Position numbers and translations under genes: made by a program. Shown piece after piece: positions 8,411 through 28,778 of a stretch of 35,041 nt of DNA (position 1 is the stretch's first letter; each line of letters begins with the position of its first letter). The notes beneath the pieces are model-generated. The model was given only the letters and a program-made list of their open reading frames with translations, was not told the DNA's origin and made no database searches. Origin of the DNA: Pristiophorus japonicus (Eukaryota); contig NW_027250833.1 of the NCBI RefSeq assembly GCF_044704955.1, positions 62,001 to 97,041 of the forward strand, written 5' to 3'.

Positions 8411-8716
8411 CTCAAGCTCCAAGCCTCATCTCGCTTGTTCCATCGCCGGAGGTTGTCTACAATCAAACCACCGCTGTCCTGGGCTGTGCCATATCTGGTT
8501 TCTATCCCGACAAACTAAAGGTTTCCTGGAAGAAAGGCGGGGTGGACCAGAAGGGTATCGTTCTCCCTTCCAGACCGGGAGCCGCCGATACCTTTGAAAC
8601 GGTGGCTTACCTGACGGTGCCTGTGGAGGAATGGACCAAGGGGGAGGTCTACACCTGTGAAGTGGCCCATGGACCTTCGAACCTCCCTAACACAATCAGC
8701 ATGAGGTATCAAGCGG
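8411..8716 (+). CDS. IgW: Ig heavy chain constant exon, probable IgW CH2 (QAPSLISLVPSPEVVYNQTTAVLGCAISGFYPDKLKVSWKKGG...TVPVEEWTKGEVYTCEVAHGPSNLPNTISMRYQA)
   Basis: Acceptor gtgttacag|8411, donor G|gtaagt at 8716/8717, 306 bp, phase 1/1, open frame. Canonical C1-set Cys..GFYP..W..YTCEVxH. Resembles skate/shark IgW CH2 as I recall it, and not IgNAR C1. Confidence 0.9.
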
Positions 8717-8884
8717 GTAAGTGGTGTCTGAGGGGGAGGAATATGGTCAGTAATCCAGCCTTGTATTAACTTAATGCGCTAATGTTCGCCCTTAACTCGT
8801 GAATCACTGTCCCGAATATCGCCCCTGGTGAGAGAGGCGAGATGTTTAGTATTTTACGTGTTGATATTGAACCGACACTTAGAG

Positions 8885-9030
8885 AGAGTAACTTTAACCC
8901 AAGGCGCTGGGCGGGGAAACTGCCGGGGTCGGGCTGGTCACCCGTTTACTTCTCGCCCGATTTTACTCTCCGCTAACTTCAATGGAAAGGATAATGGTGC
9001 GGAGCGTGAAACGGGCGGCCCATCGATACC
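8885..9030. repeat. Degenerate palindromic (MITE-like) interspersed repeat remnant
   Basis: Imperfect dyad: CCCGTTT...CCGATTTTACTCTCC-(loop with CTTCAATGGA)-...AAACGGGCGG; resembles a hairpin-type shark repeat. Confidence 0.4.
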
Positions 9031-9089
9031 TTCACCTCCTACCTGTTCCCTTCCTACTGTCTCCCAAATGTTATTTTATAGACTAGAAC

Positions 9090-9765
9090 CAGAGAATGGT
9101 CACAGCACGAAAGGCCAGTCAGCCCATCGAGCCCGTGCTGACCCCAGCCAGTCCCACTCCCCGCCCTTTCCCCGTAGCCCGCCAATATTTTTCCCTTCAG
9201 ATATTTATCCAACTCCCTTTTGAAAGCAGGATTGAGTCTGCCTCCCCCACCCTCTCAGGCCGTGAATTCCAGATCCCAACCACTCGCTGCGTAAACAAGT
9301 ATTTTCTTACATCGCCTCTGGTTCTTCTGCCAATCGCCTTAAATCTGTGTCCCTCTGGTTCCTGACCCTTCCCCCAATGGGAACAGTTTCTCTCGACCTC
9401 TGTCCAGACCCCTCATGATTGTGAACACTTCAATCAAATCTCCTCTCAACCTTCTCTGCTCCAAGGAGAACAACCCCAGCTTCTCCAGTCCATCCCCGTC
9501 ACTGAAGTCCCACATCCCTGGAACCATTCTCGGAAATCCCCTCTGCTCCCTCTCTAAGGCCTTCACATCCTTCCTAAAGTGCGGGGCCCAGAATTGGACA
9601 CAATACTCCAGCTGGGGCCGAACCCGTGTTTTATACAGGTCCATCAACATTCCCACGGGCAGTACTCTGTGTCTCGGTTTATGAAGCCCAGGATCCTGGA
9701 AGCCTTTATAACTGCTTTCCCAACCTGAGAACACCTCTGTCAAATCTCCTCTCAACCTTCTGCGC
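9090..9765 (-). mobile_element. CR1-type LINE 3' fragment(s), degenerate
   Basis: Minus-strand translation LYKTRVRPQLEYCVQFWAPHFRKDVKALE...LEKLGLFSLEQRRLRGDLIEVF. Confidence 0.9.
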
Positions 9766-9966
9766 TTTCTGCACATACACCCACAGGTAGGAAAGAAATC
9801 TGCCCAGTTTTGCATTTGAATGAATTGCCACGAGCTGCTGCCCCCTCTCCTGAGGGAACGTGTTCCATCGATTGACCACTCACTGAAATATTGATCCCCC
9901 ACATCAGATTTGAAGTGACACGGCTCCCCTTTAAGCGCAGCTCGTGTCTCTGGTTCGCCTGTTCAG

Positions 9967-9972
9967 GACCAG
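9967..9972 (+). CDS. Candidate 6-nt microexon GACCAG (adds Gly-Pro after CH2)
   Basis: Pyrimidine-rich acceptor ctcgtgtctctggttcgcctgttcag followed 6 nt later by donor CAG|gtgaga; preserves phase 1. No transcript evidence. Confidence 0.4.
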
Positions 9973-10133
9973 GTGAGACAGCGTGTTATGGTCCACACGA
10001 TCTGCTCCCTTTTAGCATCATACAAACTCCGGATGGAGCAGAGCTCCGGGGCCGTGTGGAGCTCCCACTTTCCCAGCACGGGACGGGAGGTGAAAATGTA
10101 TAACACTTAAATCTGCAACTCTTCCGGTTCCAG

Positions 10134-10264
10134 GTGGAAACGCTGCGTGCTCTTGTTCTGGGTGTGTGCCGAAGTTTCTCTACCAGACTAACCTTAAAGT
10201 GACCCTTCCCGATGGTGACGAGCATCAATATAAATGTCACCAAAACAAATGCGAAATAAAGTGA
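10134..10264 (+). CDS. IgW: Cysteine-rich secretory tail exon of short-form IgW: (G)GNAACSCSGCVPKFLYQTNLKVTLPDGDEHQYKCHQNKCEIK*
   Basis: Acceptor caactcttccggttccag|10134; phase 1 matches the CH2 donor; 42 full codons then TGA at 10262-10264; 5 Cys. Resembles (from memory) the Cys-rich tail of skate IgX / shark IgW-short ending C..PKF.YQ.NL.V...DG....Y.C...KCEIK. Confidence 0.88.
10255..10260 (+). terminator. Candidate polyadenylation signal AATAAA for short secreted IgW, embedded in the last codons (GAA ATA AAG TGA)
   Basis: Only canonical hexamer seen near this terminal exon; T/GT-rich sequence follows. Confidence 0.6.
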
Positions 10265-26474: not shown

Positions 26475-26691
26475 GTACGTGTGGAGAGAGCTCGGTGTGT
26501 GTGTCTGGGTCTGAGCCCATGAGGCCATTTATTACCGTCTCGTGGTGAGCTGTCCAGTCCGCGGTGTCTGAGTGTGTTAAAGACAGAGAGAAGCTGGAAC
26601 CCTGCCGAGAAACGGATCAGGAAAACAATCCCAAATCACAACAACGGCCCGGCACCAAACCACACTGGCTCCCGCGGGATGGGTTAGTGGC

Positions 26692-27448
26692 AGTGGGATA
26701 GACCCCGAGGGATTGGGATAGACCCCGAGGGATTGGGATAGACCCCGAGGGATTGGGATAGACCCGAGGGAGTGGGATAGACCCCGAGGGATTAGGATAA
26801 ACCACGAGGGAGTGGGTGGGATAGACCCCGAGGGATTGGGATAGACCCCGAGGGATTAGGATAAACCACGAGGGAATGGGATAGACCCCCAGGGATTGGG
26901 ATAGACCCCGAGGGAGTGGGTGGGATAGACCCTGAGGGATTGTGATAGACCCCGAGGGATTGGGATAGACCCCGAGGGGGTGGATGGGATAGATCCCGAG
27001 GGAGTGGGTGGGATAGATCCCGAGGGAGTCGGATAGACCCCGAAGGAGTGGGATAGACCCCGAGGTATTGAGTGGGATAGACCCCGAGGTATTGAGTGGG
27101 ATAGACCCCGAGGGATTGGGTGGGATAGACCCCGAGGGATTGGGATAGACCCCGAGGGATTGGGATAGACCCCGAGGGAGTGGGATAGACCCCGAGGGAT
27201 TGAGTGGGATAGACCCCGAGGGATTGGGATAGACCCCGAAGGATTGGGATAGACCCCCAGGGATTGGGATAAACCCCGAGGGATTGGGATAGACCCCGAG
27301 GGATTGGGATAAACCCCGAGGGATTGGGATAGACCCCGAGGGAGTGGGATAGACCCCGAGGGATTGGGATAGACCCCCAGGGATTGGGATAAACCCCGAG
27401 GGATTGGGATAGACCCCCAGGGATTGGGATAGACCCCGAGGGATTGGC
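26692..27448. repeat. 20-bp minisatellite GGGATTGGGATAGACCCCGA
   Basis: Visible tandem array. Confidence 0.95.
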
Positions 27449-27534
27449 AGATGTCACGGTATTAGGAGGAGCCCGAGGCAGAAGAGCCATTGGAAGGGTG
27501 AGGGAGATTGTCTGTCTGAGGCCGAGGTTGAACA

Positions 27535-27985
27535 TGTCTCCAATTCCCTTGTGAAAGTTACTGTTGATTCTGCCTCCACCACCCTCGTTCAGGCAATGAG
27601 TTCCAGACCATCATAACTCGCTGAGTAAAACGCAATTCTCCTCACCTCCCCTCTGGTTCCCTTGCCAGTTAAATGTGTGTCATGGAATCATAGAGCACTT
27701 CCCACACAGGAGGCCATTCGGCCCATCGTGTCCGTGCCGGCTGACCAAGAGCTACCCGGCCTCATCCCACTGTCCAGCTCTCGGTCCGTAGCCCTGTGGG
27801 TTACGGCACTTCAGGTGTACATCCAGGTACTGTTTAAATGTGGTGAGGGTTTCTGCCTCTACCACCCTTTCAGGCAGTGAGTTCCAGAACCCCACCACCC
27901 TCTGGGTGTAGAAATCTCCCAGTTTTCAAGTGAGGTCTGACCAAGGGTCGATACAGGTTGAGTGTAACTTCCCTACTTTACAATA
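27535..27985 (-). mobile_element. Fragmented CR1 3' remnants immediately upstream of the last CH exon
   Basis: Similar to the reverse complement of 7850-8080 and to 9200-9350 (tctgcctc.accaccct, gagttccaga, ggaggccattcggcccatcg). Confidence 0.75.
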
Positions 27986-28041
27986 CTGTGCGCGAGGACG
28001 GGACAGGACTCGGTCTAACCCAAGGTTGTCTCTGTTTGCAG

Positions 28042-28424
28042 TCGGTGCCAAGACCCGCCCTCGAGTCTACCTCCTCCCCCCTTCACCGCAAGAGATGGAG
28101 ATGGATCGGACAGCGACCCTGGTGTGCCTGGTCACCAGGTTCTTCCCCGCGGAGATCTACGTGGCCTGGATGGCCAACGACACCCTTGTGAGGTCAGGGT
28201 TGGTGACCCAGGCACTGAGCGAGGATGGCACCAACGGCTGGAACTCGGTGTCCAGTCAGCTGACGGTCCCCACAGAGCAGTGGGACAGGGGTACCACCTT
28301 CTCCTGTGTGGTGGGGCACGAGTCTTTAACCACCAGCCTGATCAGGAGCATCAATAAATCACAGGGTAAACCCACCCTGGTCAATGTCTCACTCGTTCTA
28401 ACCGATAGCTTTCAATCCTGCTGA
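28042..28424 (+). CDS. IgW: Terminal constant exon, probable IgW CH6, plus contiguous secretory tailpiece (…SINKSQGKPTLVNVSLVLTDSFQSC*)
   Basis: Acceptor ttgtctctgtttgcag|28042; PRVYLLPPS...ATLVCLVTRFFPAEIYVAWMANDTL...FSCVVGHESL; IgM/IgA-like tailpiece with NVS sequon; TGA at 28422-28424. Confidence 0.94.
28365..28371 (+). promoter_or_regulatory. Internal splice donor G|GTAAAC for splicing CH6 to downstream transmembrane exons
   Basis: Lies at the canonical Gly-Lys junction between the last CH domain and the tailpiece, as in vertebrate IgH genes; phase 1. Confidence 0.75.
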
Positions 28425-28772
28425 TACCATCCAGTGATTTCATCAATCCTCGCCCCCCATATATATATCTGGTTAGATAATCCCTGTAAATGGCTGGTTC
28501 ACCCTACCACAGGGTGGCTGTGCTCACTGTGAAATCTCCCATCTGCTAGTAGAATGCTTAAAACCCTGATCACAATCCGATCTCCTTCAGTCATTGAGAA
28601 AATAATGTGTGGTCAAGGATCAAATCGGGCAACAAACATCATCTCCAAATCTTTGAAAGTCTGGAGTTCCTTTTGAAACGTTGTTGTGCCGGGTTTGATC
28701 CAGTTTGAAACCTGTGAGACACCACCAAGTGTTAAATGGATGTCGCAAAATGTCAATGTAACCATCCAATTC

Positions 28773-28778
28773 AATAAA
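28773..28778 (+). terminator. Polyadenylation signal AATAAA for long secreted IgW
   Basis: About 350 nt after the stop, followed by GT-rich ttcgggtgttcattgttggtgtgtttggg. Confidence 0.75.

What the first reader, a model, noticed from the sequence alone, without database searches (positions are those of the whole stretch)
8411..28778. One IgW gene with two unrelated secretory ends: a separate Cys-rich tail exon after CH2 and an IgM-type tailpiece after CH6
Seen: CH2 can splice in phase either to the 10134-10264 terminal exon or, 13 kb on, to CH3-CH6; each end has its own stop and AATAAA. Known: cartilaginous fish make short (2 CH) and long (6 CH) secreted IgW. Inference: both forms come from this one gene by alternative last-exon choice. 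The short exon is absent from the ORF track and could easily be unannotated.
Basis: partly seen in the sequence, partly recalled or inferred. Interest (0 to 1): 0.7.

Follow-up and report, generated by a model that had tools for sequence, protein, structure and literature searches.

The report
Known shark IgW alternative secreted tails
This is the back half of a shark IgW antibody gene with two alternative secreted ends, a short cysteine-rich tail exon and a long six-domain form, an arrangement already described in other sharks and skates; this particular copy has likely lost its antigen-binding gene segments.

Summary
The anatomy is real. CH2 (8411-8716) joins in frame either to a 43-codon Cys-rich last exon (10134-10264) or to CH3-CH6 with an IgM-type tailpiece. 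A contig of a public run joins 8716>10134 at GT..AG. CH3>CH4 and CH4>CH5 are joined; CH2>CH3 was not seen directly. The domains are IgW: 55-86% identical to IgW, 47-60% to this genome's IgNAR-like exons. It is not new. Two reviews describe short Cys-tailed and long IgW made by alternative splicing, and UniRef already holds this tail as sawshark 'IgW, short secretory form-like'. The assembly has seven near-identical copies of the tail exon, and the CH3-CH4 alleles in the run match a sister copy, not this one. Side result: on this scaffold the V exon is cut after 8 codons and fused, over a CTGA overlap, to the J-C intron, so this copy likely lacks V-D-J. The scan noted a misjoined, V-less IgW elsewhere in this genome (e1-9952089), but no look-alike of the tail exon.

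The parts
8411..8716 (+). IgW CH2 exon (C1-set), phase 1 at both ends
   Evidence: Splice sites; Pfam C1-set E 4e-16; 55-71% to IgW CH2; a contig of X1 covers exactly 8411-8716
10134..10264 (+). Short secretory last exon: 43 codons plus stop, five Cys
   Evidence: 8716>10134 joint with GT..AG ends in X1; 98% to UniRef 'IgW, short secretory form-like'; alignment with 11 other tails
10255..10260 (+). Predicted poly(A) signal AATAAA overlapping the Glu-Ile-Lys codons
   Evidence: Sequence; kept in 7 of 7 copies; use not shown
21756..22058 (+). IgW CH3 exon
   Evidence: 57-70% to IgW CH3, 46-49% to IgNAR-like exons
22059..22136 (+). 78-nt CH3-CH4 intron, in frame and without a stop
   Evidence: Spliced joint in X1 and X2, retained form in one X1 contig; open frame
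22137..22454 (+). IgW CH4 exon
   Evidence: loose end behind 22456 reads into CH5 in both runs
26154..26474 (+). IgW CH5 exon
   Evidence: 71-86% to IgW CH5
28042..28424 (+). IgW CH6 exon with in-line IgM-type tailpiece (N-V-S sequon, Cys as last residue)
   Evidence: 68-74% to IgW CH6 and tailpiece; tailpieces compared
28365..28371 (+). Predicted internal donor (G|GTAAAC) for splicing CH6 to membrane exons
   Evidence: a phase-compatible TM exon lies 4.7-7.5 kb past CH6 in 4 sister copies; use not shown
28773..28778 (+). Predicted poly(A) signal of the long secreted form
   Evidence: Sequence; use not shown
1..7522 (.). End of an 18.6-kb 39-bp satellite array inside the CH1-CH2 intron
   Evidence: TRF; same repeat order in the CH1-CH2 intron of copy C13

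Best explanation
This is the constant region of one of about seven near-identical shark IgW gene clusters, in which CH2 is spliced to a Cys-rich terminal exon (short secreted form) and likely also, by skipping that exon, to CH3-CH6 (long form). Shown: exon anatomy, frames, IgW identity, and the CH2>tail, CH3>CH4 and CH4>CH5 joins for the gene family. Inferred: the choice is a race between the near acceptor plus its overlapping AATAAA (1.4 kb from CH2) and the CH3 acceptor 13 kb away; a second choice at CH6 sets tailpiece versus membrane exons, as in IgM (established knowledge, recalled). Inferred for the protein: the first 10 tail residues carry variable cysteines (a CxxC in 8 of 12 tails) that likely link heavy chains like a hinge, and the last 30 residues are predicted to form a small three-stranded sheet with two invariant cysteines. 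This copy likely has no rearrangeable V-D-J, so it would yield only V-less chains (leader spliced to CH1) or nothing.
For: Frames and splice sites. Joint 8716>10134, GT..AG, in X1, with neighbouring contigs ending at 8716 and starting at 10133. CH3>CH4 joint and CH4>CH5 loose end in 2 of 2 runs. X1 contig break at 21755, which fits an upstream exon sharing only one G with the acceptor; CH2 and the leader fit, CH1 does not. Named short (P0002, P0003, P0005) and long (P0037, P0039) IgW proteins share CH2 and diverge at the same point. Reviews state that these forms arise by alternative splicing. CH2 and tail lie together in 7 of 7 copies. Tail conservation, counts, model. V-D-J loss.
Against: No contig with the CH2>CH3 junction was laid; in X2 one contig runs from at least 66 nt of intron (282 more letters unseen) through CH3 into spliced CH4 without a break, so CH3-CH6 RNA not linked to CH2 may exist. 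The CH2>tail joint rests on one contig with 29 letters on its shorter side, at 90% likeness, in 1 of 2 runs of one study whose library type is not on record. CH3-CH4 alleles in both runs match copy C3873, not the window. Poly(A) use was not seen: cover stops at 10223. The tail model is weak (pLDDT 64 alone, under 50 in the full chain). The V-D-J loss depends on a scaffold join across a run of 200 N.
Confidence: 0.88

Rival explanations
1. Division of labour between clusters: each copy has both ends, but in practice the short form comes from some copies and the long form from others, and the window's copy is a silent recent duplicate.
For: CH3-CH4 contigs carry the C3873 alleles, and none of the window's private alleles tested in CH2-CH4 was seen. 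The scaffold has no J and a cut V. Copies are 97-99% identical, too young for intact frames to prove selection.
Against: Contigs collapse near-identical copies and drop rare variants, so they cannot show silence. Leader, splice sites and all six exons in the window are intact. V-less IgW transcripts are reported in dogfish and nurse shark.
Confidence: 0.35
2. CH3-CH6 is also transcribed on its own from a start inside the CH2-CH3 intron, in or near the interspersed repeat at about 21130-21570, giving a sterile or leaderless product in addition to true long IgW.
For: In both runs a contig extends 282 letters upstream of 21690, and in X2 it continues through CH3 into spliced CH4 with no break at the acceptor. 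If collinear, it starts near 21408, inside a high-copy repeat.
Against: The 282 letters were not seen. A repeat can break a contig by itself. X1 also holds intron-retaining contigs before the tail exon and between CH3 and CH4, which points to partly spliced pre-mRNA. The in-frame upstream stretch has no Pfam match and no obvious leader by eye.
Confidence: 0.2
3. The downstream exons belong to a separate IgNAR or IgM gene that happens to follow a short IgW gene.
For: CH3's best PDB hit is an IgNAR domain, 4q9b; the CH2>CH3 junction was not seen.
Against: Window CH3-CH6 are 57-86% identical to IgW but 47-60% to an intact IgNAR-like cluster of the same genome. The PDB hit lists show no chain named IgW. 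No V or first C domain lies between tail and CH3. The same order holds in 5 of 5 copies that have CH3.
Confidence: 0.02

Closest known systems
Elasmobranch IgW (IgX, IgNARC) cluster: nurse shark IgW short (P0002) and IgNARC (P0037), skate short heavy chains (P0003, P0005), sandbar shark IgW (P0039)
   Same: CH1-CH2 plus Cys-rich tail, and six-C long form with IgM-type tailpiece; 55-86% identity per domain; forms made by alternative splicing according to reviews.
   Different: Only one Cys-rich secretory exon was found; nurse shark (P0044, P0046) and P0048 also carry such a tail after a CH4-type domain. The window's short tail lacks the N-glycan sequon present in 9 of 12 tails, and its long tailpiece ends on Cys, whereas 8 of 8 stored long forms have Cys second to last.
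UniRef100_UPI00398F1392, 'splenic IgW, short secretory form-like', Pristiophorus japonicus (P0001)
   Same: CH2 99% and tail 98% identical, same CH2-tail junction.
   Different: Two residue differences match sister copies C3873 and C3915; it is a leader-CH1-CH2-tail model without V, and may be a prediction from this same assembly.
V-less IgW of spiny dogfish and nurse shark
   Same: Leader spliced to the first C domain, no V (review passages); the leader and CH1 ends here are phase-compatible.
   Different: Reported as a splice variant (8% of dogfish transcripts); here the scaffold suggests a genomic deletion of V-D-J.
IgM secreted versus membrane switch of jawed vertebrates (recalled)
   Same: Last C exon with in-line tailpiece and internal donor; proximal poly(A) competes with splicing.
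   Different: The short IgW tail is a separate exon in mid-gene with unrelated sequence.

Membership tests
IgW heavy-chain constant region | C domains closer to IgW than to IgNAR or IgM | tested here: met
   57-86% to IgW CH3-CH6 versus 47-60% to IgNAR-like exons of the same genome; CH2 55-71% to IgW CH2. No shark IgM sequence was compared directly; the sheep mu-type protein P0047 gave 31-35%.
IgW heavy-chain constant region | Six C domains ending in a tailpiece with sequon and Cys | tested here: met
   CH2-CH6 and tailpiece in the window; CH1 is not in the readable scaffold but is upstream of CH2 in 6 of 6 sister copies.
IgW heavy-chain constant region | Cys-rich short secretory tail after CH2 | tested here: met
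IgW heavy-chain constant region | CH2 spliced to CH3 in RNA | tested here: inconclusive
   Contig break at 21755 in X1 only; no junction contig laid
IgW heavy-chain constant region | Second interspersed secretory exon after CH4 (nurse shark; the two-exon statement is recalled from Zhang et al. 2013, not read) | tested here: not met
   P0044 and P0046 tails hit only 10106-10261 in the 97-kb scaffold; 7 tail copies pair with 7 CH2 copies. This lowers likeness to nurse shark, not IgW membership.
Functional rearranging IgW minilocus | Intact V, D, D, J with RSS upstream of CH1 | tested here: not met
   V cut after 8 codons and joined to J-C intron sequence; 0 of 11 J matches and no RSS on this scaffold. 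V, RSS pairs and J are present in C13 and C3915. Caveat: scaffold join across a run of N.
Functional rearranging IgW minilocus | Membrane exons downstream of CH6 | tested here: inconclusive
   Found in 4 sister copies 4.7-7.5 kb past CH6; not in the readable part of the window, whose contig ends 6.6 kb past CH6
IgNAR | C1 followed by four IgW-like domains, no IgW CH2 or Cys-rich tail | tested here: not met
   IgNAR-like clusters fetched have no tail match and no CH2 counterpart above 46%
LINE-1 ORF1p C-terminal domain (origin of the tail) | Significant sequence or fold match | tested here: inconclusive
   E 0.62 with 9 tails, absent with 12 tails; not listed in fold searches of a weak model

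The most novel reading that the evidence does not exclude
Some sawshark IgW clusters have lost V-D-J in the germline, by a 20-kb deletion here and an out-of-frame join in copy C3281, and serve as dedicated genes for V-less, Fc-only IgW with either tail, a secreted effector protein that no longer depends on rearrangement.
Probability: 0.12. Interest if true: 0.55.

Novelty: already known. Interest (0 to 1): 0.17.

Why it matters
As proposed, it matters little: the two secreted IgW ends are described in reviews and annotated in this species. Two small leads remain. The function and fold of the short tail are open, and the alignment splits it into a variable cysteine linker and a conserved 30-residue module that can be tested separately. 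And a cluster with deleted V-D-J would give a genomic source for the V-less IgW transcripts so far ascribed to splicing.

Tried and rejected
Run search: no RNA holder listed; two runs of unrecorded type from one study. A direct test of 8716>21756 was not possible, since the stretch holds long repeat arrays; only the CH3-CH4 side was laid. Tail origin: a weak hit to an 'ORF 1 protein' chain, 2jrb (read from recall as the LINE-1 ORF1p C-terminal domain), E 0.62, vanished with the larger alignment; own-genome searches for PF17490 and PF02994 gave nothing over cut-off (the second rang nowhere, so it shows no absence). Pfam on 9 tails: only bL31_N in 3 of 9 at E 0.032. Profile search of 1.84 billion proteins: 11 hits, 4 IgW-type tails; I read 2 of the other 7 and both are repeat-rich proteins. 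Fold searches: Foldseek best E 0.39, VIA best Z 2.2; this shows no new fold. Atlas: no usable hit for a homologous tail. Two-copy complex of the tail: no verdict, score 0.01. Full-chain model too weak to place the tail. Primary papers (Zhang 2013, Harding 1990, Rumfelt 2004 BMC Immunol) were not held, so neither their text nor their supplements were seen; they may already describe this exon map. Paper searches; the sawshark search listed 3 papers, none on IgW by title, none opened.
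Full report
Observation. I read window 6500-31000 and fixed the exon borders by script. CH2 is 8411-8716, the short last exon 10134-10264, CH3 21756-22058, CH4 22137-22454, CH5 26154-26474, CH6 with tailpiece 28042-28424. All joins are phase 1. Joined in silico, CH2+tail gives 144 residues and CH2-CH6 542, each with one terminal stop. The five large exons are Pfam C1-set domains; the tail has no Pfam match. AATAAA lies at 10255, inside the last three codons of the tail, and at 28773. With 6 such hexamers in 13,965 non-array bases, the first has about a 2.5% chance and the second about 16%.

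Isotype. A search with the tail returned one protein, P0001, named 'splenic IgW, short secretory form-like' of Pristiophorus japonicus, 98% identical. Searching with P0001 returned 9 proteins at E 1e-30 or better, among them nurse shark 'IgW short' and skate heavy chains with the same kind of tail. A search with CH3-CH4 returned 38 proteins, among them IgNARC, sandbar shark IgW and dogfish IgW. Per domain the window is 55-86% identical to these, and the long product 64-75% over about 540 residues to the four long forms compared. IgNAR-like clusters of the same genome (label inferred from likeness to PDB 4q9b) are 47-60% identical and have no tail. No shark IgM was compared directly.

Splicing. 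The run search listed two runs of unrecorded type from one study. In X1 a contig skips 1417 bases with GT..AG ends, 8716>10134, and neighbouring contigs end at 8716 and begin at 10133. The joint has 29 letters on its shorter side and was not seen in X2. On CH3-CH4 both runs show the CH3>CH4 joint and a loose end into CH5. CH2>CH3 was not seen. X1 breaks at 21755, and none of the four sister copies compared has a variant in the last 42 bases of the intron to explain that; the break fits a splice from an exon ending in GG, such as CH2 or the leader. Against a simple picture, an X2 contig runs from the intron through CH3 into spliced CH4 without a break. The CH3-CH4 alleles in both runs match copy C3873 among the five copies compared, so the RNA speaks for the family and not for this copy. 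Poly(A) use was not observed.

Copies. The assembly has 7 tail exons and 7 CH2 exons, paired, 5 near-identical CH3 exons and 6 near-identical CH6 exons plus a 94% orphan with stops. C3915 ends before CH3; C3281 has a 33-kb satellite in place of CH3-CH4. A membrane exon follows CH6 by 4.7-7.5 kb in four sister copies. No second Cys-rich exon follows CH4 here, unlike nurse shark P0044 and P0046.

The 5' end of this copy. Upstream on the same scaffold the leader is intact, the V exon matches C13 for 24 bases and then continues in sequence that lies in the J-CH1 intron of five sister copies. The two sides share CTGA; relative to C13 about 20.3 kb is missing, including both D segments and J. None of 11 J matches is on this scaffold and the RSS scan found none there. 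A run of 200 N separates this part from the CH1-CH2 intron, so the link is a scaffold join. The other candidate 5' end, an unpaired CH1 on C2472, also showed no leader, V or J in the 42 kb upstream.

Mechanism. Most likely the near acceptor with its overlapping poly(A) signal competes with the CH3 acceptor 13 kb downstream, and a second choice at the CH6 internal donor sets secreted versus membrane form; this follows the IgM model (recalled) and is inferred here. In 12 aligned tails six positions are invariant, G27, Y32, C34, C39, I41 and K42. The N-terminal part has 1-4 cysteines, with CxxC in 8 of 12. AlphaFold predicts three strands in residues 19-41 at mean pLDDT 64. I read this as a hinge-like linker plus a small disulfide-held module; that is untested. 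The invariant Ile-Lys may be held by the AATAAA it encodes; the preceding residue is E, K, Q or R in 12 of 12, all of which have A-ending codons, but so do 12 of 20 amino acids, so this is weak.

What is known. I saw passages, not whole texts, of four papers. [quoted passage not shown] PMC6795676 repeats the splice forms and the 8% V-less share. PMC8692893 reports IgW multimers in bamboo shark plasma as data not shown. That nurse shark clusters have two interspersed secretory exons is recalled from Zhang et al. 2013, which was not held. My six searches listed no paper on germline V-D-J deletion in IgW by title, but the primary IgW papers are outside the library, so this is no claim of absence.

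Verdict. A real, correctly read feature that is already known. Interest 0.17. The remaining leads are the V-D-J deletion and the unknown fold and role of the tail.

Noticed in passing
L012:7229-7560 (G000:C221, about 14.8 kb upstream of the window start): Intact leader, V exon cut after 8 codons and fused over CTGA to J-C intron sequence; about 20 kb with both D and J missing relative to copy C13.
   Followed up: yes
L021-L025, L048 (G000:C3281): Sister copy has V and J fused out of frame and a 33-kb 42-bp satellite in place of CH3-CH4, so its long form would be CH1-CH2-CH5-CH6.
   Followed up: partly
window 21408-22455: Contigs of both runs extend 282 letters upstream of 21690; in X2 one contig runs from the intron through CH3 into spliced CH4. 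Intronic start in a repeat, or partly spliced RNA.
   Followed up: partly
window 22059-22136: The 78-nt CH3-CH4 intron is in frame without a stop, identical in 5 of 5 copies, and retained in one X1 contig; retention would add a 26-residue linker.
   Followed up: partly
window 10255-10264: The poly(A) hexamer overlaps the Glu-Ile-Lys codons; Ile-Lys is invariant in 12 of 12 tails.
   Followed up: partly
window 28366-28424 and 10180-10200: Long tailpiece ends on Cys rather than one residue after it; short tail lacks the sequon found in 9 of 12 tails.
   Followed up: partly
L057:9434-9811 (G000:C23): Orphan IgW CH6-tailpiece exon, 93% amino-acid identity, with two stops, about 53 kb from an IgNAR-like cluster.
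   Followed up: no
L015:8087-8395 (G000:C2472): An IgW CH1 exon with no leader, V or J found in 42 kb upstream, 8 kb from its contig end.
   Followed up: partly
window 1-7522, 10328-12331, 12520-13566, 14582-17776, 25201-25843, 26694-27447: Introns are filled with satellite arrays whose lengths differ widely between copies; CH1-CH2 spacing runs from 6.5 to 30 kb.
   Followed up: partly
window 22474-23076 (+), 29883-30317 (-), 9342-9962 (-): Open frames that look like LINE reverse-transcriptase fragments (label from recalled motifs, not scanned).
   Followed up: no
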